DNA of 64,000 nt from a virus: the IMG/VR virus record IMGVR_UViG_3300036823_000156, positions 19,960 through 83,959 of that record. One strand, given 5' to 3'. The position numbers were made by a program, and so were the translations under genes. Numbering within the stretch: position 1 is the stretch's first letter; every line of letters begins with the position of its first letter. The notes under the pieces were generated by a model. It did no database searches, was not told the DNA's origin, and saw only the letters and a program-made list of their open reading frames with translations. Of the stretch, positions 605 to 47,723 are shown piece by piece.

Positions 605-3600
605 CGCGGGAGGCTCCTCCTCGTTCAAGATCGCCGACGCCTACGTCCTGGTCGGCGCGAACCTGGACGAGCGCTCCGTCGAGCAGACGGTCACCTCGGC
701 GCAGCGGCAGATCAGCCGGTCCGCGCTGAACCTCAAGGTCACGCTGGACAAGCGCAGCCTCAACGACGCCGTCACCACGACGCGGGCGTCGGTCAAGGAA
801 CTCGGGACCGATCTCAAGGTCAAGTTGGGGATCAACCTCGACGACAAGTCCCTGGCCGACACCGCGTTGGCCGTGGAGGCCGCGGCCGACACGATGAGTC
901 GCACGTCCGGGGTCAACCTGCACGTGGGCCTGGACAACACCTCGGTGCTGCGCGCGGGCGCCGACCTCAAGGCCGTCACCCGCGTCATGGGCACCCAGGA
1001 CGCGATCAACCTGCGGGTCAACAGCTCCGGGCTGTCCGAAGCCGACAACGAGGTGCAGTCCTTTTCCAACCGCTGGACGCGCCTGGCCAAGTTGATCACA
1101 GCCGGCGCACTGATCGGCGCCGGTCCGCTCGAAGCGGTCGGCCTGGCCACGGTCATCGCCGGGTTCGGTGCGCTGGCCATCGCGGCCGAGGCCAGCAACA
1201 AGGACGTCAAGGCCTCGTTCAAGGACATGACCGCCTCCGCCAAGCAGACGGCGGCCGAGGGGTTCTCGCCGGTCATCCCCCAGCTGGTGTCGCTGGGCGA
1301 GCAGGCCAAGACCACGATCAGCGGTCTGGAACCCGCCTTCCAGCGTGCCGGCCTGGCGATCTCGCCGATCCTGGGCACCATCGGCACCGATCTGCTGGAA
1401 TCCGTGCAACGCGGCGTCGAGGGGGCCGAGCCCCAGCTGAACAAGCTGCCGCCGCTGGCCAGCTCGATCGGCAACTCGTTCAACACCCTCGAACACGGTG
1501 TCGGCGGGTTCGTCAACAACATCGACGTCAGCAAGGCCGTACACGGCTGGGACACGCTGACCGTCGCGGTCGGGCAGCTGCTGCCGGCCCTGTCGATCTT
1601 GCTGAACACCGCCGAGCCGGTCGGCTCCGCGCTGTTGCAGATCGTGGGCGGCGCGGTCTCCACCCTGTTCCGCGAGATCGGCGAACTCAACCCGGAGATG
1701 CAGGCCGCCGGGGCGATCTTCTCCTTCATCGGCCCCGCCATCTCGGTGGTCGGGCCGCCGCTGCTGGCGGTCGCCGCCGGCACGCGGCTACTGACCGGTA
1801 GCTGGACCGACTTCGCCGGGGCCGGCACCAAGCTCAAGGGCATCGTCACCGGCATGCCCGGCATCATCGAGCAGTTGGGCCAGAAGTTCGGCTACACCAC
1901 GGCCGCCGCCAACCAGGCGGCCAAGGCGTCGGCCGAGGTCGCGCTGAACACCGCGCTGGAGTCCAAAGCGGTCGACGAGGCCGTCGTCGCCGAGGCGGCC
2001 GACGCGGTGGCCCAGGAGGACAGCGCCAAGAACGCGCAGTCCCTCTCGATCGCCAAGAAGCAACTGGCCGCGTCCACGGTCGAAGCCACCGAGGCGCAGA
2101 AGGCGTTCGACGCCACCACCGAGGAGTCCACCTTCGCGATGGGACCGCTCGGCCTGGCGCTGGGTGTGGTGACGGCCGGACTGCTGCTGTTCTCCGGTCG
2201 GTCCAAGGACGCCTCCGAGCCCACCCAGGACCTGACCGCCGACCTGGAGCGCCTGGCCGCCGCCGCGCCCGGTGCGACGCAGGGCATCCTGGCCGGCGAC
2301 CCGGCGCTGCAGAAGCTGATCACGGGCGCCAAGAACGCCGGTGTCAACGTGCAGGGCCTGCTGTCGGCCTACCAAGGCGGCACCGGCCCGCTGGACGCGT
2401 TCACCAAACAGCTGCAGAACCAGCAGAAGCAGCTGGGGGACACGCAGGTGTCGATGTCCTCGGTGACCACCGGGATCAAGCTGGGCAACGACCCGGCCGT
2501 GAAGTTCTCCGCCTCCATCGCCCAGTTGGCGGCGGCCGGCAAGCAGCTGTCGGAGAACAACGTCAAGCTGTCACCGCAGCAGCAGGCGCAGATCGCGCAG
2601 TACCGCAACCTCCAGGCCGTCACGGCACAGCTGGGCGTGTCGCAGAAGGCCCTCGCCGGCAATCAGGCCGCGGGCGCCGCGGTCACGCAGACCACGCAGC
2701 AGACGCAGACCCAGTGGAACCACACGATGACCGAGGCCAGCTCCATCACCTCGGCCTACGGCGGCAACCTCACCAGCACCGCGCTGCAGATGCAGAACTT
2801 CGCCGCACAGCAGAAAAACGGCCAGTTCTCGATGGAGGACTTCGTCAAGGCGCAGGTCACCGCGGCCGGCGGGTTCCTGCAGGCACAGGCACAACAGCAG
2901 CAACTCAACGCCGCGGTCACCCAGACCGCCCAAGCCCAGGTGCAGGCCGGTCAGTCGGTCGCGTCGGCCAAGAACCAGGAGCAGCAGGCGATTCTGCAGG
3001 TGGCCGACGCCGAGCACAGCGCGGCACAGTCCGCCGGTGCGGTCACCGACGCCGAGCACTCCTACCAGCAGTCCATTCAGGCCGTGTCCGACGCGAAAAC
3101 CGCGGTGGTCAAGGCACAGCAGCAGGAACACACCGCGCAGCTTCAGTACACACAGGACCTGGCCGCCGCACGCGCCGCCGAACTGGCGCTCTCGGCCGCC
3201 CGCAAGCAGGCGGTGCTGGACCTGCAGGCCGAGCAGCGCCAGGTGCTCGATCAGGGCGACACGGTGGCCCAGGCCGAGTTGCAACTGTTCGACGCACAGC
3301 AGGCGGTCAACAACGCCGGCCTGGCCAACAGCACACTGAAGCTGTCCGACCTGGCCAACACCAAGAACCTCAACACCGCCAACGAACAGTCCTACCAACT
3401 GCTGCTCTCGCTGTCCGAGGCGCAGCACGGACTCAACGACGCCAAGGCCCAACAGGCCCAAGTGGACAGTCAGAACGCCGCCGACCAGAAGAAGGGCGTC
3501 TCGGGCAGCCAGGACGTGCTGACCGCGCAGCAGAACATCGCCCAGGCGCAGAACCAGGTCCAGCAGTCGCAGCAGCAACTGGTGGACAGCAAGGATTCGG

Positions 3601-5120
3601 TCGTCAAGGCCAGCCAGTCGGTGGTGCAGGCCCAGTACGCGGAGAAGCAGGCGCACGACGCGGTCGCCCAGGCCCAGTACGCCGAACAGCAGGCCAACGT
3701 GGCGGTCACCCAGGCCAGTTTCGCTTCGCAGCAGGCGACCCAGGCGTTGGCCTCGGCGAATCTGCAGGCGCAGCAGGCCTCGATCGCCCACAAGACCGCG
3801 GTACAGCAGGCCAGCGGATCGATCGACATCAACACCCAGGCCGGCAACCGCAACGTCACCACCCTGCTGCAACTCTACGACAACCAGATCGCGGCCGGTA
3901 AGTCGACCGACCAGGCGCGCACCGCGGTGGAGAAGGAAGGCGTCCAGCTCGGCATCACCAAGGGCGACGTGGACAAGGTCCTGGGGTCGATCAAGAACAT
4001 CCAGGGCAAGACCGCGACGTTCGGCGTGGTCGGCACGCCCTCGGTCAACCTGTCCGAGCTGATCAACGCGGCGAGCAAGCAAGGTCTCAACCCGCGCACG
4101 CTGGGCTTCACCACCTCCGAGATCGGCAACGCCCGGGCCAGCGGGTCGGGCAGCTTCCCGACGCACGGCGCGGCCACCGGTGGCCTGATCAAGGGCCCGG
4201 GCACCAGCACGTCGGACTCGATCATGGGAGTCAGCCGCGCGGGGGTGCCCACGGCCTGGGTGAGCCCGGACGAGTACGTGGTCAACGCCAAGGCCACCTC
4301 GATGTTCCTGCCGCAGCTGGAGGCCCTCAACGCCGCCGGGCTGCCGGGCCGGGCCTCCGGTGGTCTGGCCGGCGACGGCAAGGCGATCGTGTCGGCCAAC
4401 CTGATGCTGACCGAGGTCGGCGCCATGATGCACTCCGCTCGCGAGGCCTTCCTCAAATCCGGCATCGCCAGTTCCCTGCCGGACTTCGCGCCCAAGAACC
4501 CGCCCGAGCCGGACTTCTCGGCGCTGGGCGCGGGCGGCGACACCGGGTCGCACGGCGCGGCCCAGGCCGCGGCCCAGGCCTACGCGGCGAGCGTGTTGAG
4601 TGCGCACGGATGGAGCTCCGCCCAGATGGCTCCCCTGATCAAACTGTGGAACCAGGAGTCGGGCTGGCAGTGGTGGGCGCTCAACAGCTCCAGTGGCGCC
4701 TACGGCATCCCGCAGTCCCTTCCGGCCAGCAAGATGGCGTCGGCCGGTCCGGACTGGCGCACCAACGCGCGCACGCAGATCAACTGGGGCCTGGGGTACA
4801 TTCAAGATCGTTACGGCTCGCCAGCAGCGGCATGGGCGCACGAGATCGGCTACAACTGGTACGACGAGGGCGGCGTCCTGCCCAAGGGCCTGTCGATGTC
4901 GCTGAATCAGACCGGCGCCAACGAGCACAAGGCCGTGTTCAGCACGGCGCAGTGGAACGCGCTGGGGGCCCTGGCCTCGGCGGTGCAGAGCGGCACGAGC
5001 GGCAAGACGGTCCAGATCCACAACCACTTCCTGGTGGAGTCCATGTCGGTCGCCAACGCCGTCGCGGCGCAGGCCTCGGCACAGACCAGCTGGGACCTCG
5101 CGACGAGCCTGGGGGCGTGA
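597..5120 (+). CDS. Tape measure protein with C-terminal lytic transglycosylase domain
   Basis: 1507 aa, Ala/Gln-rich coiled coil with TM segments; C-terminal WNQESGW...GAYGIPQ...TQINWGLGYIQDRYG SLT-like motif. Confidence 0.93.
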   Translation: MTSAGGSSSFKIADAYVLVGANLDERSVEQTVTSAQRQISRSALNLKVTLDKRSLNDAVTTTRASVKELGTDLKVKLGINLDDKSLADTALAVEAAADTMSRTSGVNLHVGLDNTSVLRAGADLKAVTRVMGTQDAINLRVNSSGLSEADNEVQSFSNRWTRLAKLITAGALIGAGPLEAVGLATVIAGFGALAIAAEASNKDVKASFKDMTASAKQTAAEGFSPVIPQLVSLGEQAKTTISGLEPAFQRAGLAISPILGTIGTDLLESVQRGVEGAEPQLNKLPPLASSIGNSFNTLEHGVGGFVNNIDVSKAVHGWDTLTVAVGQLLPALSILLNTAEPVGSALLQIVGGAVSTLFREIGELNPEMQAAGAIFSFIGPAISVVGPPLLAVAAGTRLLTGSWTDFAGAGTKLKGIVTGMPGIIEQLGQKFGYTTAAANQAAKASAEVALNTALESKAVDEAVVAEAADAVAQEDSAKNAQSLSIAKKQLAASTVEATEAQKAFDATTEESTFAMGPLGLALGVVTAGLLLFSGRSKDASEPTQDLTADLERLAAAAPGATQGILAGDPALQKLITGAKNAGVNVQGLLSAYQGGTGPLDAFTKQLQNQQKQLGDTQVSMSSVTTGIKLGNDPAVKFSASIAQLAAAGKQLSENNVKLSPQQQAQIAQYRNLQAVTAQLGVSQKALAGNQAAGAAVTQTTQQTQTQWNHTMTEASSITSAYGGNLTSTALQMQNFAAQQKNGQFSMEDFVKAQVTAAGGFLQAQAQQQQLNAAVTQTAQAQVQAGQSVASAKNQEQQAILQVADAEHSAAQSAGAVTDAEHSYQQSIQAVSDAKTAVVKAQQQEHTAQLQYTQDLAAARAAELALSAARKQAVLDLQAEQRQVLDQGDTVAQAELQLFDAQQAVNNAGLANSTLKLSDLANTKNLNTANEQSYQLLLSLSEAQHGLNDAKAQQAQVDSQNAADQKKGVSGSQDVLTAQQNIAQAQNQVQQSQQQLVDSKDSVVKASQSVVQAQYAEKQAHDAVAQAQYAEQQANVAVTQASFASQQATQALASANLQAQQASIAHKTAVQQASGSIDINTQAGNRNVTTLLQLYDNQIAAGKSTDQARTAVEKEGVQLGITKGDVDKVLGSIKNIQGKTATFGVVGTPSVNLSELINAASKQGLNPRTLGFTTSEIGNARASGSGSFPTHGAATGGLIKGPGTSTSDSIMGVSRAGVPTAWVSPDEYVVNAKATSMFLPQLEALNAAGLPGRASGGLAGDGKAIVSANLMLTEVGAMMHSAREAFLKSGIASSLPDFAPKNPPEPDFSALGAGGDTGSHGAAQAAAQAYAASVLSAHGWSSAQMAPLIKLWNQESGWQWWALNSSSGAYGIPQSLPASKMASAGPDWRTNARTQINWGLGYIQDRYGSPAAAWAHEIGYNWYDEGGVLPKGLSMSLNQTGANEHKAVFSTAQWNALGALASAVQSGTSGKTVQIHNHFLVESMSVANAVAAQASAQTSWDLATSLGA

Positions 5121-28477: not shown

Positions 28478-28490
28478 AATGTACACTATC
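28478..28490 (-). promoter_or_regulatory. Conserved GTTAGTGTACATT-type motif (variant)
   Basis: aatgtacactatc; includes the TAG stop of the upstream gene. Confidence 0.6.
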
Positions 28491-31896: not shown

Positions 31897-32823
31897 TCAG
31901 GCCGCGTCCTGCAGGTCGGGCGGTCCGAAGCCGTGGGCGACGTGGATGGCGCGGGACTGCCGCCACAGGTCGCGCAGGACCTCCTTGGACACGCACCGCA
32001 GGGCGCGAGCGTGGATGTGGTTCTTCGACAGCGGGGTGCCGGCGAGCGCGGGGCTGCCCGAGGGTCCGCATCGGACGCAGGCCAACTCGTGCACGGCGTC
32101 GGCGTAGAACTCCTTCTCCTGGTCGTAGACCTCGCGGTACGGGCCGCCGGACTTCATGCAGGACTCGGAAATCATCCGGCAGCGCATCCGCGCGGTGACC
32201 GACCAGTTGACCTTGGTGCCCTTGCGGCGGGCCGGAGCCAGACCGGCGATCACGCTGTAGCCGGAGTAGCTCCACAGCTCGGCGATCGTGCGGGGGCGGC
32301 CCATCTTGACGTTCCAGTACGGATCCCCGATCGCGGCCAGCAGTCGACCGACCTGCTTGGCGCCCAGGCCCTTCTGCGCCTCGATCCAGCCGTACAGCGG
32401 GTGGTCCTGAATGGTCTTCTGCAGGTTCTTCGTCGCGTTGACCTCGGCCCGCTGCATCGGCGGCACGATCAGGCCCATCTGCCACACCATCGGGTTCCAG
32501 CCCTTGGGCATGGTGAAGATCTTGCGGTTGGCCGCGGCCTGGATGGACAGGTGCGTCTCGACCTCGTCGAGCACGGCCTGCACGAGGTCGAAATCCTCCT
32601 CGTCCTCGGGCACGTGGATGTTCGGGGGCAGGAAGCCGAAGCCGACGTCCTTGCCGTCCTTGTTCATCCGGGGCAGCACGAGCTGGCGCAACCGGTTCTG
32701 GTTGGCGATGCGCACGCGCTCCATGTCGTCGAGCACGTCGGCGGCCATCGTCAACGTGGGCGGCGACATCAGTTCGGCGAGGGGATTCGGTACCGCTTCG
32801 ACCTCTTCGATCTCTTCTGTCAT
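31897..32823 (-). CDS. Nop/IS110-C-terminal-domain RNA-binding protein, nuclease-less (TasA-like)
   Basis: RIANQNRL coiled coil, HPLY.W....GLG.....LLA.IGD, LWSYSG, RRKG...NWS, YR..YD..K, H.HARALR...K..L.DLW; no DEDD RuvC or HNH seen. Confidence 0.75.
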   Translation of the reverse strand: MTEEIEEVEAVPNPLAELMSPPTLTMAADVLDDMERVRIANQNRLRQLVLPRMNKDGKDVGFGFLPPNIHVPEDEEDFDLVQAVLDEVETHLSIQAAANRKIFTMPKGWNPMVWQMGLIVPPMQRAEVNATKNLQKTIQDHPLYGWIEAQKGLGAKQVGRLLAAIGDPYWNVKMGRPRTIAELWSYSGYSVIAGLAPARRKGTKVNWSVTARMRCRMISESCMKSGGPYREVYDQEKEFYADAVHELACVRCGPSGSPALAGTPLSKNHIHARALRCVSKEVLRDLWRQSRAIHVAHGFGPPDLQDAA

Positions 32824-32850
32824 GCACTTTCTCCTTGGGTGGGTGGGGAT

Positions 32851-33216
32851 TCCGACTGACGGGGAGTGCTGGTCGCACGATCGCTGATGGTCAGTCGGAG
32901 CGGTGGTCCGCTCGGCCGGCGGGATGACTTGTGTCGTGCTTCCGTGTTGGCCGACCGAGCGGAACTCGGTCACCCGGCCGACGTCGTCAGCGTTGGTTCG
33001 CCGCGCGCTGTTGGTCGACCGGGCAAATCTCTTCGGGTGGAACCGCCCGACTGGCGAAAGGTGTTTGGGCAGCGATCGCTCCTGGCCAGCCGGGCGGAGT
33101 CGGGCCCGTTGCCGACACGACGATTGTGAGTCGAGTCGTGCGGTGGTCGGCAACGGGAGTGGGCGTCCGGCCAACGTTCACCCGTGGGGCGCATGGGTCG
33201 AGCTGGTCGGCCGGAC
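32851..33216 (-). ncRNA. TIGR-like stem-loop guide array, 6 units (upstream of Tas-like gene)
   Basis: Six hairpins with paired TGG (CCA on - strand) boxes about 18 nt apart; starts just after the conserved motif at 33220. Confidence 0.78.
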
Positions 33217-33219
33217 TGA

Positions 33220-33232
33220 AATGTACACTAAC
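33220..33232 (-). promoter_or_regulatory. Conserved GTTAGTGTACATT motif upstream of the TIGR-like array
   Basis: Exact aatgtacactaac. Confidence 0.7.
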
Positions 33233-33258
33233 ACAGGTCGGTGTAGCGGTAATGATCC

Positions 33259-33692
33259 AAGCCTCGCCTCGCCTGGCCGCGCCCTGCCCAGCCTCGCCCC
33301 GCCATGCACCGCCTTGCCTAGCACCGCATCGCCAAGCGCGTCCGGCAGCGGAGTCGAACCGCTGCTACGACCATCCGGACAACCATTCTCCCAGCCTTGC
33401 CATGCCGCGCCATGCCTCGCCGGGCACCGCCCAGCCTCGCCACGCCGAGCGTGCTGCCCCCGGGAGTCGAACCCGAGATGCGACCATCGCAGCTACCATT
33501 CTCCTAGCCACGCCGCGCACCGCCGCGCCCTGCCGCGCCGAGCCACGCCATGCCAAGCCACGCCCTGCCGAGCGTGCTGCCCCCGGGAGTCGAACCCGAG
33601 GTACGACCATCGCAGCCACCATTCTCCTAGCCTGGCCCAGCCGCGCCCTGCCCTGCCGAGCCACGCCCTGCCCTGCCGAGCCACGCCACGCC
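33259..33692 (-). ncRNA. Array of four (GGC-NN)11-15 pentamer tracts separated by mini tRNA-like elements (VIPR-like guide RNAs)
   Basis: Tracts 33259-33333, 33392-33446, 33505-33569, 33628-33692; separators carry GGTTCGACTCC T-arms. Confidence 0.8.
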
Positions 33693-33705
33693 CTGCATCT
33701 TCGCG

Positions 33706-34191
33706 CTAGGCGCGAAGTTTCTTGGGAGCGTTGCGCTCCAATTCTGCCACTCGCTCGGCGAGTGACCGAGTTTCGCGGCGGCGGCGGCCGTTGATCTCGG
33801 CCTTGCGAGCTGCTACGCGTTCCTCGAAGTCCACCTCGGCCCGCCGTTCGTGTACCAGTTCGGCACGACGGCGTTGTGAGGCATTGATCTTGGCGGCGTG
33901 ACGGTCGTCAGCGCGTGCAGCTTTCTTGCGTTGCCTGCCGATCAGCGGCACGGCGGCGTTCGGCTCCAACACCAGCCACCCGATGTTCTCCTTGGTTTCG
34001 ACCGTGTTCTTGCCGGCACGACCGAGTTCCAGATTGGCCTTGATCATCGCGCCTTGGACCGAGTTCCGGCTGGGCGCCTTGCAGTCCTCGATAGCCTGGG
34101 CATAGGTGATGACGCCACCCACCTCGGTCTCGCACACGATGTCGTACAGGATCCGCCAACGTGCCTTGCCGTTCGCAGGTTCGATGTTCAT
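33706..34191 (-). CDS. Accessory protein, putative winged-HTH plus basic coiled coil
   Basis: ATGA overlap with the RAMP-like gene; GGVITY...V....NIGW wing-like pattern. Confidence 0.6.
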   Translation of the reverse strand: MNIEPANGKARWRILYDIVCETEVGGVITYAQAIEDCKAPSRNSVQGAMIKANLELGRAGKNTVETKENIGWLVLEPNAAVPLIGRQRKKAARADDRHAAKINASQRRRAELVHERRAEVDFEERVAARKAEINGRRRRETRSLAERVAELERNAPKKLRA

Positions 34192-34763
34192 TGAGTCACC
34201 TCGACCGTGAACCTCCCGTAGAACCGGCGGAACGTGCCGACACCGATCATCTTGCCCGCCTTGGTCGCGATATCTTGGAAGTCCTCGGTCGACAGCACGC
34301 GGTCGTCGACGTCGATCTCGAACGCGCAGGACCACTGCGGGAAGATCGGCCGGACGCGCGGGATGCGCTTGCCCTCCACATTCACCATCAGGCGGCTGAC
34401 GTACGGACTGGTCGGCCCGTCGCCCCAGAGACCGTCGACATCGCGCGGCCCGTCATAGGACAGTGGCGCCTTCAGATCAAAAACCTGAAGAGCTTGAGCG
34501 ACTTTCTTGCCCGACCGGGTGATGGACCCCGCCTCCATCAGCGCCCGGAAGATGTTGTCACCCGGCAGGTACGGACCGAGCTCGGCGTTGTGGTACAGCG
34601 CCCCGACCCAGGACAACCGGTCGATCTCGGCCCTGTCCTCGTCGGTCTTGTTGGTTCGTTTGGACGTCAGTTTCTTTACGGCCCTGGTGATCGGCTCATC
34701 GGGGTCGGCAAGTCTGATGTTGTGCATGATGAGCGGCGCGATGCCGGTCAGCTCGATTCGCAT
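34188..34763 (-). CDS. Stand-alone RAMP/Cas7-like protein (Vipr-like)
   Basis: N-terminal IELTGIAPLIMH strand, PYLPG, RVRPIFPQW and C-terminal G-rich loop GVGTFRRFYGRFTV. Confidence 0.72.
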   Translation of the reverse strand: MRIELTGIAPLIMHNIRLADPDEPITRAVKKLTSKRTNKTDEDRAEIDRLSWVGALYHNAELGPYLPGDNIFRALMEAGSITRSGKKVAQALQVFDLKAPLSYDGPRDVDGLWGDGPTSPYVSRLMVNVEGKRIPRVRPIFPQWSCAFEIDVDDRVLSTEDFQDIATKAGKMIGVGTFRRFYGRFTVEVTQ

Positions 34764-34830
34764 GACTTTCCGTTCTGTGGTCAGTGTTTGACGGCAGTTC
34801 CGTCTCACTTCACATCGGACATTGTCCGAT

Positions 34831-34937
34831 CGTGCGGGCCGAGGACTCGAACCTCGGTGTGTGCCGCTCCCGCTTCCTAGCCTGGCCCCGCCAAGCCCTG
34901 CCCTGCCGAGCCACGCCCTGCCATGCCGAGCCCTGCC
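34831..34937 (-). ncRNA. (GGC-NN)12 tract plus mini tRNA-like element upstream of the RAMP-like gene
   Basis: 12 perfect pentamers at 34878-34937 followed by GCGGG...CCGAGG-TTCGAGT-CCTCGG-CCCGC-ACG. Confidence 0.8.
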
Positions 34938-34944
34938 TTGCAAG

Positions 34945-34978
34945 AATGTACACTAACGTAGGTCGGTGATCGCGTCAA
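34945..34978 (-). promoter_or_regulatory. SigA-like promoter containing the conserved motif
   Basis: TTGACG-17 bp-TAGTGT(ACATT) immediately before the first GGC-NN tract. Confidence 0.7.
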
Positions 34979-35420
34979 GTCCGACGGAGCGGAAAGCACT
35001 GTCCGCAAAGGTCAGAACGCGGCGGCCCATGCGAGTGCTGTAGACGTGGGTGGAGCGGGCATCCTTGGGCACGGTGGCCTTCTCGCGCAGACCGGTGAAC
35101 GTGTTGATCCACTCGATCTGCTTGCCGGCCAGGCATTCCGCTGCCGTGTTGTCGTCCATGGCCGCGAAGTCGTAGGTCGGCTCGCTGGTGCGCAGTGCGG
35201 TGGCCGCCGCGGCCGGGTCCAGGATCTGCTGGCGCCCCCGCACTTCGGGCGACTCGAACCAGGACTCCGAACTGGCGAAGCGCTCGCCGCGCCAGATCAG
35301 CTCCATCCGCTCACCCTCGCCGCGCCAGAACCGCATCCGGTAGTCGCTCTCGTAGCCCAGCTCGTCGTGCTCCCAGCCCATCTTGGTGGCCCAGTGCGCC
35401 AACTCCTCGGTGCCTTTCAC
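34953..35420 (-). CDS. Hypothetical protein
   Basis: Coupled ORF. Confidence 0.6.
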   Translation of the reverse strand: MKGTEELAHWATKMGWEHDELGYESDYRMRFWRGEGERMELIWRGERFASSESWFESPEVRGRQQILDPAAAATALRTSEPTYDFAAMDDNTAAECLAGKQIEWINTFTGLREKATVPKDARSTHVYSTRMGRRVLTFADSAFRSVGLDAITDLR

Positions 35421-35737
35421 GCCGGATACCCTCTCTCCATCAGCTCGACCGGGCGCTCGCCGACGTAGCCCTGGCACGCGCACCGCACATCGACGTCGTG
35501 CCAGTCCACATTGGTGGCCCACTTGCGTTGTTGGTGCGTGACCTGGCACGGCCCGCCGTGGAGCAGCTCACGCGTGCTGGTGACGAGGTGCTCGTGCGCA
35601 CTGATGGGATCTCCGCACGTGCACCGGTAGCTCGGCGGCTTCGGGTCCTGGTGGTCCCGCTTGTAGTAACCGGTCACGCGGCCGACGACGAAGGCCACCA
35701 CCGTCGCCGCCGCGAGAACGATGTCGAGCAGGTGCAT
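35417..35737 (-). CDS. Small membrane-anchored Cys/His protein
   Basis: N-terminal TM; C.C.D...H...C...C.C motif. Confidence 0.55.
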   Translation of the reverse strand: MHLLDIVLAAATVVAFVVGRVTGYYKRDHQDPKPPSYRCTCGDPISAHEHLVTSTRELLHGGPCQVTHQQRKWATNVDWHDVDVRCACQGYVGERPVELMERGYPA

Positions 35738-35739
35738 GG

Positions 35740-36630
35740 TCAGTTGCCGCCCACGACGACCGGCGACCCCTGCGGGATCGGGATGATCTTGACCTTGCCG
35801 TCGGTGATGGCCTGGTTGACGGCCTGCTGTTCCTGGTAGGCCTGGTAACCGGCCACGCCGCCCGGGAAGTTCTTGGCCGCCTGCTCGTCCACGGCGGCGG
35901 CCTGCTGCCGCAGCACCGCGGCCTGCTTGGCCGACAGACCGGCCTGCAGCTGGGGCTGGATGCCCGGCTTCTGCAGCAGCACCACGTCGATGTCGATCAG
36001 GTTGGTGCCCAGCGTGAGCTGGTTGAGGATGCGCGGGATGTCCTGCTGCACCTGCGTGGACCACGAGGTGGTGGCCTGCGCGGAGGTGTAGAGGTCCTGC
36101 CAGCCGAAGTTCAGCGCCTCGGTGTCACTGGCCCGGTCGACGGCCGCGCCCAGGTAGTTCTTCAGCATCTCGTCCCAGCCGCCGGGCAGGTCCGCGTCCG
36201 CGTCGGTGGGCAGCGCGTCGTACTTCTTGCCGATCAGCTCCCAGAACGCCTGCAGGCGCCCGCCGGGCCAGGTGCGGCCGGTCGAGTCCTTCCACGGCAC
36301 GCAGGAGGTGTTGAGGGTGAACTTGACCGTGCCGGTCACGCTGATCTGCTGGCCGTCCTTGGTGGCCGAGGTCAGCGCCGGGGAGTCCTCACCCTTGCCG
36401 GTGCCGAAGGACCAGTCGCGCTGGCCCAGCGGTGCGTAGTACTCGGTGTCGTTGACGTCGCGAGCGCCGTGCGTCGAGGGACCGGTGCACTGGACGAACT
36501 TCACGCTGTCGAAGGGGCCGCCGCCGTACTGCAGGGCGACCTGGGAGGCCGTGGTGTTGACGATCGAGCAGGCCGCGACGGCGGCCAGCACGACGGGGGC
36601 GAGGACTGCTGCTCGCAGGTACCTTTTCAC
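35740..36630 (-). CDS. SPFH/band-7-like lipoprotein
   Basis: Lipobox VAAC; TKDGQ.ISV.GTV.F; C-terminal coiled coil. Confidence 0.65.
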   Translation of the reverse strand: MKRYLRAAVLAPVVLAAVAACSIVNTTASQVALQYGGGPFDSVKFVQCTGPSTHGARDVNDTEYYAPLGQRDWSFGTGKGEDSPALTSATKDGQQISVTGTVKFTLNTSCVPWKDSTGRTWPGGRLQAFWELIGKKYDALPTDADADLPGGWDEMLKNYLGAAVDRASDTEALNFGWQDLYTSAQATTSWSTQVQQDIPRILNQLTLGTNLIDIDVVLLQKPGIQPQLQAGLSAKQAAVLRQQAAAVDEQAAKNFPGGVAGYQAYQEQQAVNQAITDGKVKIIPIPQGSPVVVGGN

Positions 36631-38519: not shown

Positions 38520-39299
38520 TCATTCGGCTCCTTCCCAGGTTGCCTCGTAGATGGTGGCCATCAGGCCGTTGGCCCAGTCGCGGTCGGGCACCGTCCGCAA
38601 CGGCGACTTCTCGATCGCTTCCTGGATGTCCAGCTCCCAGTCCTCGATCATCGACAGCACCTCGTCCAGCGTGTAGACGCCGGTGCGGATGTGGTGCAGC
38701 AGGGTGCGCTGGGGCTCGGGGATCGGCAGCGTGATGCGGCCGGTGGACAGCAGCTCGTGTCCCTGGAAACCCAGGCGCACCGCGTGGTAGGCGAACTTCG
38801 TGTCGAAGCCGTACTCGGCGATCAGCTCGGGACGGTTGGTGTGCTGCGACTTCAGGCCCAGCATGCGCAGGCGCTGGTTGTGCAGGTAACCCAGGAACTT
38901 GTGCGTGATCTGCTTGGACAGGATGTGTTCGATCGCGTGGTTCGAGCGCAGCACCCGACCCCAGTGCGTGATGGTCACGGTGTCCTGCTTCGGCGCGAAC
39001 AGCGGCATGATGACGGTGGGGTTGCCGTCCAGCGCCAGGCGCATCCACTTGCGCAGCCCGTAGACGTTCAGATCGAGATCGCCCGGTCCGGAACGCACGT
39101 GCTGCGGCTGGGTGCGGAACTCGTACTGGTCGAAGCGCTTCAGCCCGAGCACGTACTCCTTGGGTTCGACGCAGATGCCCATCTCGTCGCGGTCGTCGGT
39201 GTCCTCGACGGTCACCCCGTACAGGCCGGAACCGACCTGGGTCCGCAGGATCGTGAACCGGTTGGCGATGTCCTCGCGGTCCGGCGTCTGGTACTTCAT
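38520..39299 (-). CDS. Pol-beta superfamily nucleotidyltransferase
   Basis: VGSGLYG...DTDDRDEMGI, GNPT, YGFDTKFAYHAVRL. Confidence 0.8.
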   Translation of the reverse strand: MKYQTPDREDIANRFTILRTQVGSGLYGVTVEDTDDRDEMGICVEPKEYVLGLKRFDQYEFRTQPQHVRSGPGDLDLNVYGLRKWMRLALDGNPTVIMPLFAPKQDTVTITHWGRVLRSNHAIEHILSKQITHKFLGYLHNQRLRMLGLKSQHTNRPELIAEYGFDTKFAYHAVRLGFQGHELLSTGRITLPIPEPQRTLLHHIRTGVYTLDEVLSMIEDWELDIQEAIEKSPLRTVPDRDWANGLMATIYEATWEGAE

Positions 39300-39505
39300 C
39301 TCAGCCACCGTTGGCCCCCTTCCAGTTCTGCTCGATGGTGCGCGCGATCTCCACGACGTCGTCGTCGGCCGACACGCCCGCATCGGCGTGCTCCAGGCCG
39401 ATCCGGGCCAGCGCCAGCAAGGCCTCGCGCTGCCGGGAGGACAGCAGATCCCGAATCAACGAGCTGGCGCTGATCTTCTTGAACTCGGTCTGCTTCGGGA
39501 TGCCC

Positions 39506-41175: not shown

Positions 41176-42813
41176 TCAGGCGGAATAGAACGGCCAGTTG
41201 GCGTTCTGCCCGCGCTCCAGCAGTTCGATCTGTCGGAACGCGGAGTCGGTCAGACCGCTCATCACGTGCCGGTTGGCCGCGCCCGACGGGGCGTGCCCGC
41301 GCCGGTATCCGGCCAGATTGTAGGTGTAGAGCGGGGTGCTGTCCGGCAGGGCCGAGCCGGGATCTTTGCCCCAGTAGTCGCTGGCCTGCTCGTCGGTCAG
41401 GATGACCACGCGGTCGTGCTTGTCGAAGTTCCGGGCCACCGCCTGGGTGGTTTCCGTGCCGCCCGCCAGGAAGTAGCCCGCACTCTTCCACCGGGCGATG
41501 CCACTGAGCAGCGACTCTTCCTTGCGGAACGGGAACTTCGTCGAGGCGTTGGAGAACGACACGACGGTCGGCTGATCGCACCGATGGGCCAGGGCCAGGC
41601 CGAACAGCACCGCCGCGTCCCAGCGGGCCAGCGTGCCGTCCTTGCTGAACGTCGCGTCCATCGACGCGGACGTGTCCACCAGGATCAGTGTGCGACCCTC
41701 CAGCGTCGTGATGTTGTCCAGCGAGTTCTGCAGAGCGCGTTCCAGCGCGCCCTGCCACCGGCCACCGCTGCCGACGGCGCGGGCACTGGAGAGCAGCTGC
41801 ATCGGCCACTGGCGGGCGGCCACGATCTCGGCCGGGTCGGACAGCCGCGCCACGACGTGCTTGACCGAGGCGGGAGAGATGCCGGCCTGGTCGAAGTTGC
41901 GCAGGTTCATCCGCAACGCCTGGAACCCCATCGACGGGATCAGCGCGTCCCACACCGGGCCGGTCATCTCGCCCTGCAGCCAGCCCGACACGGTCTCCCA
42001 CGTCATGCCGGCCGACGCGATCTTGTTGGCCGCCTTGACCGGGTCCTTGGTGAACAGCCTGCGCCGCTTGTCCAGGTCCCACTGCTGCATCTTCCGGTTG
42101 GCCGTGATCATCTTCAACTCGGCCGGGATCACGGCGTCCTTGTGCTTGTAGTGGCGGTCCAGGATGTAGGAGAACAACGCGGACTGCTCGGCGTCACGCG
42201 GTCGCGGCCGGCACAACGCGATCACCCGGGCGAAGTCGAACTCCCGTTCGCCGGTGTCGTACTTGAGGAACGCGCGCTGCGTGTACATCCGGGTGGCCGC
42301 CGAGGCCGCGCCCCGACGCCAGGAGATCGGCAGGGTGTCCTTGCCCGGGTGCGTGCTGCGCCAGTAGGCCAGGGCCTCGCCGGGCTCGTCCGGGCGCTGC
42401 AGGGCCGCGTCGAGGAACAGGCGGCCGGAGAACTCCTCGTGCCCTTCGTAGCGCTTGAGGCCGTCCAGCGCGTGCGCGGCGGCCACCATCGGGGCGGTGC
42501 GCAGGAATCCCTCGGTCCGCAGCCACTTGATCCACGCCATGGTCCACTGTGGATTCAGCGCGGCGACGTTGCGGGTGAGGGTGGCGAAGCGCGAGTCGCG
42601 GTCTTTGGCGGTCTCGTAGAAGGTGTCCTGCCCGACCATGTTCTGGACCGAGAGCAGGAACAGCTCGGACTGCAGGCCGCGGGCGTAGCCGGGGCCGCCC
42701 TCCTCGGTGCGTCCGGTCGGCGTCGACTCGGAGAGGATCGGGGACATGCCCGGCGCGGACGGCGGCGCCGTCCGCGCCGTGCGGGCGGAGGCCGGTGGAT
42801 TGAAACGAGCCAT
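41176..42813 (-). CDS. rsr: Ro60/Rsr-like TROVE-domain RNA-binding protein with vWA domain
   Basis: T.EGG.GY...ELF, TFYE, RPDE, TWE, ALRMNLRN, ILVDTSASM (MIDAS), GGT, LTDEQ. Confidence 0.9.
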   Translation of the reverse strand: MARFNPPASARTARTAPPSAPGMSPILSESTPTGRTEEGGPGYARGLQSELFLLSVQNMVGQDTFYETAKDRDSRFATLTRNVAALNPQWTMAWIKWLRTEGFLRTAPMVAAAHALDGLKRYEGHEEFSGRLFLDAALQRPDEPGEALAYWRSTHPGKDTLPISWRRGAASAATRMYTQRAFLKYDTGEREFDFARVIALCRPRPRDAEQSALFSYILDRHYKHKDAVIPAELKMITANRKMQQWDLDKRRRLFTKDPVKAANKIASAGMTWETVSGWLQGEMTGPVWDALIPSMGFQALRMNLRNFDQAGISPASVKHVVARLSDPAEIVAARQWPMQLLSSARAVGSGGRWQGALERALQNSLDNITTLEGRTLILVDTSASMDATFSKDGTLARWDAAVLFGLALAHRCDQPTVVSFSNASTKFPFRKEESLLSGIARWKSAGYFLAGGTETTQAVARNFDKHDRVVILTDEQASDYWGKDPGSALPDSTPLYTYNLAGYRRGHAPSGAANRHVMSGLTDSAFRQIELLERGQNANWPFYSA

Positions 42814-42856
42814 GAGTGCTCAACTCCTTGTCAGAGAAGGAGGAGCGGCAAGCCAA

Positions 42857-42985
42857 GAGTCCGAGAAAAGGTGGTCGAAGGTATTGTCGCGCTCTACCGC
42901 TGAGCTACCCACCGAAGTGGGGCGGGATTCGAACCCGCGACCTCGTCCTTACAGGGGAAGTAACCCTCAACCTGACTGCGGACTC
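42857..42985 (-). ncRNA. yrlA: YrlA-type Y RNA (permuted tRNA-like domain)
   Basis: Terminal stem GAGTCCG/CGGACTC; T arm GCGGG-TTCGAAT-CCCGC, then CCCAC-TTCG-GTGGG, then D arm TAGCTCAGCGGTAGAGC; directly upstream of Ro60. Confidence 0.85.
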
Positions 42986-47453: not shown

Positions 47454-47723
47454 GCGTGGCCCTAGGGGATTCGAACCCCTGTCTCCGTGACTTCACGGGT
47501 CCACCGGGGCCGCCGGCAAGCAGGACGAGGAGAGGTCAGGGTGTCTTGGGCCGCTAAACGATCGGGCCGTAAGGTTTCCGTTGTGCCTGGTGCATGCCGT
47601 CCGAGCCCGCGCTCGTGTCATCGCGCAAGGACCGTGGGGTATGACGTGTTGTTCGTGGTGCCAGGCCACCATTCAGTTGTCAGGAAGACGGTCGCACAGC
47701 CGCTGTCCTGGCCGGTCAGGGCC
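47454..47723 (-). ncRNA. tmRNA-shaped / tRNA-like-closed structured RNA (about 270 nt)
   Basis: 5' GGCCCTGACCGGCCAGGACAGCGGCTGT can pair with 3' GACAGGGG-TTCGAAT-CCCCT-AGGGCC-A; upstream TTGCGC-17-TAACGT promoter. Confidence 0.45.

What the first reader, a model, noticed from the sequence alone, without database searches (positions are those of the whole stretch)
33336..33627. Mini tRNA-like elements punctuate the pentamer array
Seen: between tracts (about 33336-33391, 33447-33504, 33570-33627, and 34831-34877) are roughly 50-58-nt elements. On the - strand one reads GGAGAATGGT-AGCTGC...CTCGGG-TTCGACT-CCCGGG-G-GCAGC-ACGC: an acceptor-like stem stacked on a canonical T arm, with no D or anticodon arm. 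Stems covary between copies (GCAGCGG/CCGCTGC, CCGAGG/CCTCGG). Known: RNase P and RNase Z recognise acceptor-plus-T-arm minihelices. Inference: host tRNA-processing enzymes cut the precursor into single guides, replacing a Cas6-type nuclease.
Basis: partly seen in the sequence, partly recalled or inferred. Interest (0 to 1): 0.8.

Follow-up and report, generated by a model that had tools for sequence, protein, structure and literature searches.

The report
tRNA-shaped tails on phage guide RNAs
The four elements are real miniature mimics of the top half of a tRNA that end the guide RNAs of a phage VIPR system (a CRISPR-related DNA silencer first described in 2026), and they probably let the host's tRNA-trimming enzymes set the guide ends, which the VIPR preprints I could read do not mention.

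Summary
Observation confirmed. On the minus strand, four 41-43-nt minihelices follow (GGCNN)11-14 tracts. Each has a 5-bp acceptor-like stem, a 10-11-nt bulge with an invariant GG, a 6-7-bp T stem, a canonical T loop (TTCGANT) and a purine-CG tail. Across 47 copies from 14 phage loci every modelled pair forms, and 10 of 11 and 10 of 12 pairs covary. My finder required pairing, so only the covariation counts as evidence.

The context is a known system, VIPR (bioRxiv 10.64898/2026.04.26.720920). The 191-aa neighbour folds as Csm3/Cas7 and is 29% identical to SUSP1 Vipr. A vap1-like gene and GGY/NN guide tracts complete it.

The minihelices take the place of the published 3' "tail", which is a pseudoknot in SUSP1.

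Processing by host RNase Z or RNase P is plausible but untested. Hammerhead-interspersed vrRNA arrays are a precedent for processing signals between guides. Most minihelices follow a tract, so they are probably kept as caps rather than cut out as spacers.

This scan has reported the same module before on other phage DNA. It is a new variant of a known kind.

The parts
34945..34983 (-). Promoter-like site: TTGACG, 17 nt, TAGTGT, inside the recurrent motif GTTAGTGTACATT. It opens directly into the first tract.
   Evidence: Read from the sequence. The motif recurs at 28478, 30862, 33220, 34945 and 40231 on the minus strand, 14 matches against 2 expected. The sigma-70 consensus scan did not call it. 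Promoter function is inferred.
34878..34942 (-). vrRNA-1 guide tract: 13 pentamers (TGCAA, then 12 GGCNN units).
34829..34875 (-). Geometry-2 tRNA-like minihelix, the tail of vrRNA-1. It reads GCGGG / AGCGGCACACA / CCGAGG / TTCGAGT / CCTCGG / CCCGC / ACG. The core is 34834-34873 and the discriminator A is at 34833.
   Evidence: Model R1, 63.8 bits, E 7e-11. The minimum-free-energy fold equals the model structure. Covariation in alignment A3.
34188..34763 (-). vipr gene (191 aa), a Cas7/Csm3-like RAMP protein.
   Evidence: AF2 pLDDT 95. Top Foldseek hits are almost all Csm3/Cas7-family subunits of type III and VII complexes, E 6e-5. VIA Z 9.3 to Cmr4/Csm3. 29% identity over the full length to SUSP1 Vipr, E 3e-29. 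GGY-contact residues H14, R138 and R179 are invariant in 38 homologues. phrog_4652, no Pfam family.
33706..34191 (-). vap1-like accessory gene (161 aa); its start overlaps the vipr stop by 4 nt.
   Evidence: Position is the same as in SUSP1, wV8 and LittleE. Weak similarity to SUSP1/wV8 vap1 (27% over 78 aa, E 3e-4) and to LittleE gp33 (E 3e-7). No Pfam or PHROG family.
33628..33697 (-). vrRNA-2 guide tract, 14 pentamers.
33571..33618 (-). Geometry-1 minihelix, the tail of vrRNA-2. It reads GCTGC / GATGGTCGTA / CCTCGGG / TTCGACT / CCCGGGG / GCAGC / ACG. The core is 33576-33616 and the discriminator A is at 33575. The conserved junction GGAGAATGG lies upstream, up to 33627.
   Evidence: Model R2, 73.7 bits, E 6e-15. 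The minimum-free-energy fold equals the model structure. Alignment A4.
33505..33574 (-). vrRNA-3 guide tract, 14 pentamers. The first is the degenerate CGCTC that starts right after the discriminator.
33448..33495 (-). Geometry-1 minihelix, the tail of vrRNA-3. The core is 33453-33493 and the discriminator A is at 33452.
   Evidence: Model R2, 71.6 bits, E 2e-14.
33392..33451 (-). vrRNA-4 guide tract, 12 pentamers.
33335..33382 (-). Geometry-1 minihelix, the tail of vrRNA-4, with both stems changed in a compensatory way (GTCCG/CGGAC and GCAGCGG/CCGCTGC). The core is 33340-33380 and the discriminator G is at 33339.
   Evidence: Model R2, 66.5 bits, E 3e-13.
33259..33338 (-). Fifth tract: 16 pentamers, three of them TGC. 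It has no minihelix tail and ends just before the next GTTAGTGTACATT motif (33220-33232).
   Evidence: No model match and no terminator-like site after it. Its status as a working guide is open.

Best explanation
The elements are the constant, structured 3' tails of four guide RNAs (vrRNAs) of a type II-like VIPR system in an ~84-kb high-GC phage. The system has vipr (a Cas7-like RAMP that polymerises on GGY/NN repeats), a vap1-like gene, one guide upstream and an array downstream, all on the minus strand.

In this lineage of mostly high-GC phages the tail is not the pseudoknot published for SUSP1. It is a mimic of the tRNA top half. A 5-bp acceptor-like stem (mostly a G-C first pair) stacks on a 6-7-bp T stem. 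The T loop is canonical (a G-C closing pair and U-U-C-R-A). The 10-11-nt bulge carries an invariant GG that can play the part of D-loop G18-G19 and close a tRNA-like elbow. A purine "discriminator" and CG follow the stem.

Shown: the fold by covariation, the strand, confinement to VIPR arrays, and the tie to the upstream tract.

Inferred, step 1: the minihelix stays on the mature guide as the 3' cap of the Vipr filament, like the SUSP1 pseudoknot.

Inferred, step 2: it also recruits host tRNA-end enzymes. Most economically this is one RNase Z-type cut after the discriminator, which would make the 3' end of one guide and the 5' end of the next at once, possibly followed by CCA addition. RNase P cutting 5' of the stem is the alternative.

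Predicted mature guides are about 110-125 nt, ending at 34833, 33575, 33452 and 33339. I put about 0.9 on "vrRNA tails with a tRNA-like fold" and about 0.5 on "processed by host tRNA enzymes".
For: VIPR identity:
- The neighbouring protein is a Csm3/Cas7-like RAMP. It is 29% identical over its full length to SUSP1 Vipr (E 3e-29; tblastn).
- The residues that hold G1, G2 and Y3 in the cryo-EM structure (H17, R138, R179 of SUSP1) are H14, R138 and R179 here, invariant in 38 homologues.
- 77 of 80 IMG/VR loci encoding a homologue carry GGNNN tracts on the gene strand.
- The preprint defines a vrRNA as 9-16 YNNGG repeats plus an invariable structured 3' tail, and the tail caps the RNP.

Minihelix fold:
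- Covariation is strong.
- The models found 12 further copies that were not in their training sets. All lie on the gene strand and inside arrays (L004, L005, L008, L009, L032, L067).
- G53, T54, T55, C56, A58 and C61 are invariant, and the bulge GG is kept in at least 90% of copies.

Tail rather than spacer:
- 39 of 47 copies follow a clear tract and only one clearly does not. At least five have no tract after them.

Processing signal:
- Trine has a minihelix directly after the vipr stop codon with no tract before it. That makes sense only as a cut site that frees the next guide.
- The base after the stem is a purine in 38 of 39 copies, followed by CG in 32 of 39. The next tract is in pentamer phase right after that base in 15 of 29 cases.
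- VIPR arrays interspersed with hammerhead ribozymes are published, so processing signals between guides have a precedent.
- From my own knowledge: RNase P, RNase Z and CCA-adding enzyme accept acceptor/T-arm minihelices.
Against: - There are no RNA data for this phage, so neither the ends nor expression are shown.
- The acceptor plus T stack is 12 bp only in geometry 1. It is 11 bp in geometry 2 and 13-14 bp in L015, L061 and L054, which is loose for enzymes that measure from the T loop.
- The base at -1 is not conserved, and the 3' tail is ACG, not CCA.
- If RNase P cut here, it would separate the tract from its tail, which does not fit the published need for a tail.
- T loops are a general RNA building block, so tRNA-likeness need not mean tRNA enzymes.
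- One Vipr must accept two tail geometries in the same locus (also in L004 and L005). That argues against a tight sequence-specific Vipr-tail contact, but it says nothing on processing.
- The fifth tract has no tail.
- Exact 1-nt-skip searches found no target for four of the guides. That is uninformative, because natural targets may have mismatches or be missing from the collection.
- The preprints' supplementary files were not readable, so a tRNA-like tail may be shown there.
Confidence: 0.6

Rival explanations
1. Cap or handle only. The minihelix is the Vipr-filament cap, assembly start and protection against 3' exonucleases. It uses a T loop and bulge only as a compact self-folding module. 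Guide ends are made by general RNases (RNase E or J, 3' exonucleases stopped by the helix) or by Vipr itself. Host tRNA enzymes play no part.
For: The published tail is a cap on the RNP, and sharing the tail is treated as the condition for Vipr loading. SUSP1-type arrays mature without any tRNA-like element. Stack length varies from 11 to 14 bp, and neither -1 nor CCA is conserved.
Against: This does not explain why the mimicry extends to the G1-C72-like first pair, a purine discriminator and the D-loop-like GG. It also does not explain the Trine minihelix that has no tract to cap.
Confidence: 0.28
2. Excised spacers. RNase P cuts 5' and RNase Z cuts 3' of each minihelix. The minihelix is discarded, as with mascRNA or engineered tRNA-gRNA arrays, and the mature guides have no tail.
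For: The 12-bp stack with a G-C first pair and an A discriminator in geometry 1 is a textbook RNase P/Z minihelix (my own knowledge). In Trine, minihelices flank both tracts on both sides.
Against: In the studied systems the tail is kept and capped in the RNP. Minihelices are tied to the upstream tract, and arrays begin with a tract that has no minihelix before it (window, LittleE).
Confidence: 0.1
3. tRNA gene remnants or integration-site (att) copies, or degenerate pseudo-tRNAs with no role in the array.
For: Phage att sites often copy the 3' half of a tRNA gene. ARAGORN calls pseudo-tRNAs on some copies (L001, L005).
Against: The copies are tandem and alternate regularly with tracts. They lie on one strand only. 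They were found at VIPR loci of 14 phages, with compensatory changes that keep both stems. No integrase lies nearby. There is no anticodon or D arm.
Confidence: 0.01
4. tRNA decoys. The minihelices soak up host tRNA-directed defence enzymes (acceptor-end nucleotidyltransferase toxins or tRNA nucleases), independent of VIPR.
For: The phage carries other tRNA-like RNAs, namely a YrlA-like RNA next to a Ro60 gene, and an RlaP-family nucleotidyltransferase. The acceptor-end mimicry is present.
Against: The elements occur only inside VIPR arrays, phased with the tracts, across unrelated phages. They have no anticodon arm for anticodon nucleases.
Confidence: 0.02

Closest known systems
Type II VIPR system of Escherichia phage SUSP1 and a Pseudomonas fulva prophage (Vipr + vap1 + vrRNAs; bioRxiv 10.64898/2026.04.26.720920, 10.64898/2026.04.26.720927, 10.64898/2026.10.15.759431)
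   Same: A homologous Vipr (29% identity over the full length). A vap1-like second gene. One guide upstream and an array downstream on the gene strand. 11-14 GGY/NN repeats per guide. Each tract is followed by a constant structured 3' element.
   Different: Here the 3' element is a tRNA acceptor/T-arm mimic in two geometries, not the SUSP1 pseudoknot, and shows no recognisable sequence similarity to it by eye. The host range is high-GC phages. Position 177 is T here, not the D of SUSP1 whose alanine mutant is inactive. No targets were found.
Hammerhead-ribozyme-interspersed vrRNA arrays (VIPR types I and V, fig. S19 of 10.64898/2026.04.26.720920)
   Same: A structured RNA module sits between successive guides and plausibly sets their ends without a Cas6-type protein.
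   Different: Those modules cut themselves. The minihelix has no ribozyme, since there is no Rfam match, and would need host enzymes acting in trans.
Engineered polycistronic tRNA-gRNA arrays, and MALAT1/mascRNA (my own knowledge)
   Same: A tRNA or tRNA-like unit embedded in a longer transcript is used so that RNase P and RNase Z release the neighbouring RNAs.
   Different: Those use full cloverleaf or near-cloverleaf units that are excised. Here only the top half is mimicked, and it probably stays attached to the guide. The Rfam mascRNA model does not match these elements.
YrlA (bacterial Y RNA-like) tRNA-like domain
   Same: A non-tRNA RNA of phages and actinobacteria that mimics the tRNA acceptor/T-arm and elbow. 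A YrlA-like partial match lies in this same phage at 42888-42945 next to a Ro60 gene.
   Different: It works with a different partner (Ro60) and has a different architecture. The Rfam YrlA model does not match the VIPR minihelices.
CRISPR repeat handle and Cas6 processing in class 1 systems
   Same: A variable guide part is capped by a constant structured part, and a Cas7-family filament forms on the guide.
   Different: There is no Cas6, no CRISPR repeats and no adaptation genes. The periodicity is 5 nt with sequence-specific GGY anchoring. The cap is tRNA-like.

Membership tests
VIPR system (type II-like) | A Vipr protein: a single-RRM RAMP with thumb and G-loop, homologous to SUSP1 Vipr. 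| tested here: met
   (Csm3/Cas7 fold, Z 9.3). (29% identity, E 3e-29 to the SUSP1 Vipr ORF). (H14, R138, R179 invariant; aromatic residue at 178; T in place of D at 177).
VIPR system (type II-like) | vrRNA tracts of alternating GGY/NN, about 9-16 repeats, on the vipr strand and flanking the genes. | tested here: met
   tracts of 13, 14, 14, 12 and 16 pentamers, with 46 matches against 0.07 expected.
VIPR system (type II-like) | An invariable structured 3' tail after each repeat tract. | tested here: met
   Four of five tracts are followed by a conserved minihelix. The fold differs from the published pseudoknot.
VIPR system (type II-like) | An adjacent vap accessory gene (vap1, a predicted DNA binder). 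| tested here: inconclusive
   A 161-aa gene sits in the vap1 position. Similarity to SUSP1/wV8 vap1 is only weak (E 3e-4), as it is to LittleE gp33 (E 3e-7). Its fold was not predicted.
VIPR system (type II-like) | Guides specify dsDNA targets by the 1-nt skip rule. | tested here: inconclusive
   Exact xNN patterns of four guides found nothing in IMG/VR. There is no self-target in the phage, with best scores of 17-19 of 24-32 positions. Mismatched targets could not be searched.
VIPR system (type II-like) | vrRNAs are expressed and co-purify with Vipr. | not testable with these tools
   No RNA run was listed.
tRNA | A cloverleaf with D arm and anticodon arm. | tested here: not met
   ARAGORN finds no tRNA in the window. 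Rfam finds nothing at these elements at E up to 10. Only a 10-11-nt bulge lies between the acceptor and T stems.
tRNA | A canonical T arm: G53-C61 closing pair and a T54-T55-C56-R57-A58 loop of 7 nt. | tested here: met
   These columns are invariant in 37 aligned copies.
tRNA | A 12-bp coaxial acceptor/T stack ending in discriminator plus CCA. | tested here: not met
   The stack is 12 bp only in geometry 1. It is 11 bp in geometry 2 and 13-14 bp elsewhere. The tail is a purine followed by CG, not CCA.
SUSP1-type pseudoknot vrRNA tail | The conserved ~40-nt tail sequence and pseudoknot of the SUSP1 clade. | tested here: not met
   The SUSP1 and wV8 tails share no recognisable sequence or helices with the minihelix by eye. 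Models R1 and R2 do not match wV8 (L003). The SUSP1 locus itself was not searched with the models.
Hammerhead-interspersed vrRNA array | A hammerhead ribozyme between guides. | tested here: not met
   No Rfam ribozyme match in 32000-36000 at E up to 10, or in the whole window at gathering score.
RNase P / RNase Z substrate (functional class) | Cleavage at the 5' end of the stem, or after the discriminator, by the host enzymes. | not testable with these tools
   Only the shape was tested. There are no RNA ends and no enzymology.

The most novel reading that the evidence does not exclude
A lineage of mostly high-GC phage VIPR systems has swapped the guide-RNA tail for a tRNA top-half mimic. Host RNase Z (and/or RNase P), and perhaps the CCA-adding enzyme, would then mature, end-protect and possibly quality-control the phage's guide RNAs. 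That would be a natural counterpart of engineered tRNA-gRNA arrays and a Cas6-free route to guide biogenesis.
Probability: 0.45. Interest if true: 0.7.

Novelty: new variant of a known kind. Interest (0 to 1): 0.58.

Why it matters
VIPR systems were described only in 2026. The preprints I could read name no dedicated nuclease that cuts their multi-guide arrays into unit guides, apart from self-cleaving hammerheads in some types. A tRNA-shaped tail gives a concrete, testable answer for one large lineage: the phage borrows the host's universal tRNA-end machinery.

If that holds, three things follow. It links RNA-guided inter-phage warfare to tRNA processing. It explains why gene callers and tRNA finders mis-annotate these regions; Trine gene 40 and the ARAGORN pseudo-tRNA calls are examples. 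It also offers a compact natural module (41-43 nt) for multiplexing guides in Actinobacteria.

If the tail is only a cap, it still shows that Vipr filaments tolerate unrelated 3' caps (pseudoknot, hairpin, tRNA mimic), which matters for engineering.

Tried and rejected
- RNA evidence: none was listed. The look-up of sequencing runs returned no RNA holder, so ends and expression could not be examined and read laying was not used.
- Rfam: nothing at the elements at E up to 10 and nothing in the window at gathering score. A weak RT-13 match at 33159-33221 on the plus strand (E 0.19) was not pursued.
- ARAGORN: no tRNA in the window. Its calls in L001, L005, L061 and L067 overlap minihelices or tracts, and I read them as false.
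- Folding energy: z-scores of -0.5 to -1.5 do not help in 67% GC sequence.
- Targets: exact 1-nt-skip patterns for vr1-vr4 found nothing in IMG/VR. There is no self-target. vr5 and the genome and metagenome collections were not scanned.
- Near relatives: megablast of 24 kb found none in the phage collection, so the host is unknown. The closest Vipr homologues include Amycolatopsis proteins.
- Ideas held before the fold search and dropped once VIPR was identified: a TRAP-like ring-protein binding site, an R-loop or G-quadruplex replication origin, primase or Chi sites, and a type III toxin-antitoxin array.
- A single model for both geometries was not built, because MAFFT conflates the one-column offset. 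Two models were used instead.
- Supplementary files of the preprint are not held, so I cannot exclude that a supplementary figure shows tRNA-like tails.

Full report
**What is there**

The window is the last 64 kb of an 83,959-bp, 67% GC phage record (IMG/VR, CheckV 92% complete). Most genes are on the minus strand. Reading that strand from 34983 down to 33220 gives this order:

- a promoter-like TTGACG-17 nt-TAGTGT site inside the recurrent motif GTTAGTGTACATT;
- a tract of 13 pentamers (34942-34878);
- a structured element (34875-34829);
- a 191-aa gene (34763-34188);
- a 161-aa gene overlapping it by 4 nt (34191-33706);
- tract (14 units), element, tract (14), element, tract (12), element, and a last tract (16) with no element.

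GGCNN phasing of this strength is far beyond chance, with 46 matches against 0.07 expected.

Each element is a minihelix. The three array copies read 5 bp / GAUGGUCGYA / 7 bp / UUCGACU / 7 bp / 5 bp / purine-CG(C). I call this geometry 1.

The upstream copy reads 5 bp / AGCGGCACACA / 6 bp / UUCGAGU / 6 bp / 5 bp / ACG. I call this geometry 2.

ViennaRNA returns exactly this fold for three of the four copies, but the energies are not unusual for GC-rich sequence. The support therefore has to come from comparison.

BLAST and a protein-anchored search brought in Gordonia phage Trine, Mycobacterium phage LittleE and 80 IMG/VR loci. A pattern finder and then two covariance models located 47 copies in 14 loci. 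All are on the gene strand and all are inside pentamer arrays. They include 12 copies that were in neither training set. The only full-length matches in the whole phage are the four elements.

In the two alignments every cell is paired. Ten of 11 and 10 of 12 pairs change on both sides, and no shuffle reaches the observed covariation. Sliding the partner by one column drops pairing to 50-60%. The 100% figure is partly due to how the copies were picked. The many pair types at each position are not.

The columns that never vary are those that define a tRNA T arm: G53, T54, T55, C56, A58 and C61. A GG in the bulge is kept in at least 90% of copies. The first pair is mostly G-C. The base after the stem is a purine in 38 of 39 copies and is followed by CG in 32 of 39.

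**What the system is**

The 191-aa protein has no Pfam family. It folds with pLDDT 95 into a RAMP. Its top structural matches are almost all Cas7-family subunits of type III and type VII complexes (Foldseek E 6e-5; VIA Z 9.3, rmsd 3.1 Å over 144 residues).

Homologues sit in Felix O1-like coliphages. There the same gene pair is flanked by (GGTNN)n tracts.

The preprint (10.64898/2026.04.26.720920) describes phage-encoded Vipr RAMPs, a vap gene, and vrRNAs made of 9-16 YNNGG repeats followed by an invariable structured 3' tail. The NN dinucleotides read double-stranded DNA with one skipped base.

The window's protein aligns over its full length with the SUSP1 Vipr ORF (29% identity, E 3e-29). 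It keeps H14, R138 and R179, the counterparts of SUSP1 H17, R138 and R179 that hold the GGY bases. Position 177 is T here, not D. The 161-aa gene is weakly similar to SUSP1 vap1.

This is therefore a type II-like VIPR locus with four complete guides and a fifth tract without a tail.

**What the minihelices are**

[quoted passage not shown] That pseudoknot is treated as the feature that makes an RNA competent for Vipr loading.

In my set 39 of 47 minihelices follow a clear tract. Seven follow a degenerate one, and only one (Trine, right after the vipr stop codon) follows none. At least five have no tract after them. The element therefore belongs to the guide upstream of it.

Arrays end with a tract that has a hairpin or terminator (LittleE) or nothing obvious (this window).

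On a quick Vipr tree the minihelix label is clustered but patchy. It needs 7 changes against 12.9 in shuffles, and 11 of 14 carriers lie in one half of the tree (quick tree, SH-aLRT support only, midpoint root). Neighbouring lineages use plain hairpins or short conserved marks. Tails thus look exchangeable.

Both geometries occur in one locus here, and also in L004 and L005.

**How it probably works**

The word "tRNA" does not occur in the three VIPR preprints held, and no held paper combines "vrRNA" with "tRNA-like". What is published is that some VIPR arrays are interspersed with hammerhead ribozymes. Processing modules between guides therefore have a precedent.

The minihelix looks like the trans-acting version of that. 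A stack of 11-12 bp ends in a T loop, the bulge GG could close an elbow, and a purine discriminator follows. From my own knowledge, that is the shape recognised by RNase P, RNase Z and the CCA-adding enzyme.

One cut after the discriminator would finish one guide and start the next. In 15 of 29 cases the next tract is in pentamer phase from exactly that point, with A|CGCNN GGCNN as the usual form. Copies within a locus are not independent, so this is only suggestive.

The Trine minihelix that has no tract to cap also fits a cut-site role.

Several points argue for caution:
- stack length varies from 11 to 14 bp;
- position -1 is not conserved;
- the tail is not CCA;
- an RNase P cut would sever the tract from its tail;
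- T loops are a generic RNA module.

I therefore rate "vrRNA tail with a tRNA-like fold" at about 0.9 and "matured by host tRNA enzymes" at about 0.5.

**Comparison and novelty**

The system is known, and the module has been reported several times by this scan on other phage DNA. Those notes are not independent evidence. My own tests reach the same reading.

Against the literature I could read, the tRNA-like tail is a new variant of the vrRNA tail or array architecture. It is not a tRNA (no cloverleaf), not a hammerhead, not the SUSP1 pseudoknot, and not YrlA or mascRNA by Rfam.

**Limits**

No RNA data, no identified targets and no known host. The vap fold was not predicted. The tree is the quick version.

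Noticed in passing
window 41176-42945 (-): A Ro60-like gene (41176-42813; Pfam TROVE, 7e-11, plus a vWA domain) has a partial YrlA (Y RNA-like) match directly upstream at 42888-42945 (E 3e-7, below Rfam's gathering score). This is a second, unrelated tRNA-mimicking RNA module in the same phage.
   Followed up: partly
window 47458-47511 (-): A weak Rfam match to the tRNA-like mascRNA/menRNA family (21.6 bits, E 0.62), around a GGGGTTCGAATCCCC T-arm-like hairpin followed by GGGCC-ACGC. It may be a third tRNA-like element, or chance.
   Followed up: no
window 28478, 30862, 33220, 34945, 40231 (-); 47866, 63298 (+): The 13-bp motif GTTAGTGTACATT recurs, exactly or with one mismatch, always oriented with local transcription (14 matches at up to 3 mismatches against 2 expected). 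It is probably the phage's early promoter -10 region or an operator.
   Followed up: partly
window 34814-34830 (-): A perfect 8+8 palindrome, ATCGGACA-A-TGTCCGAT, lies between the upstream minihelix and the vipr start codon. It is a candidate operator, for example for the vap1-like protein.
   Followed up: no
window 33259-33338 (-): The fifth pentamer tract (16 units, three of them TGC in place of GGC) has no minihelix and no terminator-like site. It runs into the next promoter-like motif. It may be a decaying guide, or one with another kind of 3' end.
   Followed up: partly
L001 (Gordonia phage Trine) 3085-3888; L002 (Mycobacterium phage LittleE) 2054-2443: GenBank gene 40 of Trine (804 nt) runs through two guides and two minihelices; the real vap-like gene probably starts at L001:3382. 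LittleE gene 35 lies antisense over the upstream guide array. Both look like gene-caller artefacts on VIPR arrays. ARAGORN also calls pseudo-tRNAs on minihelices in L001 and L005.
   Followed up: partly
L002 (LittleE) 2160-3960: The whole VIPR cassette (two guides, vipr, vap, three guides, terminator) sits antiparallel between the tape-measure gene and the tail genes. This is the look of a mobile insertion.
   Followed up: no
window 31897-32823 (-) and 33159-33221 (+): The next gene downstream (308 aa) matches phrog_4285, annotated "transposase" (3.8e-78), and genes of cluster A-like mycobacteriophages. Its long leader gives a weak RT-13 Rfam match on the plus strand (E 0.19). Another first-reader note calls this region TIGR-Tas-like; I did not test that.
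   Followed up: no
window 38520-39383 (-): An RlaP-family (RNA repair pathway) nucleotidyltransferase gene (Pfam 3e-30) lies a few kb from the Ro60/Y RNA module and the VIPR locus.
   Followed up: no
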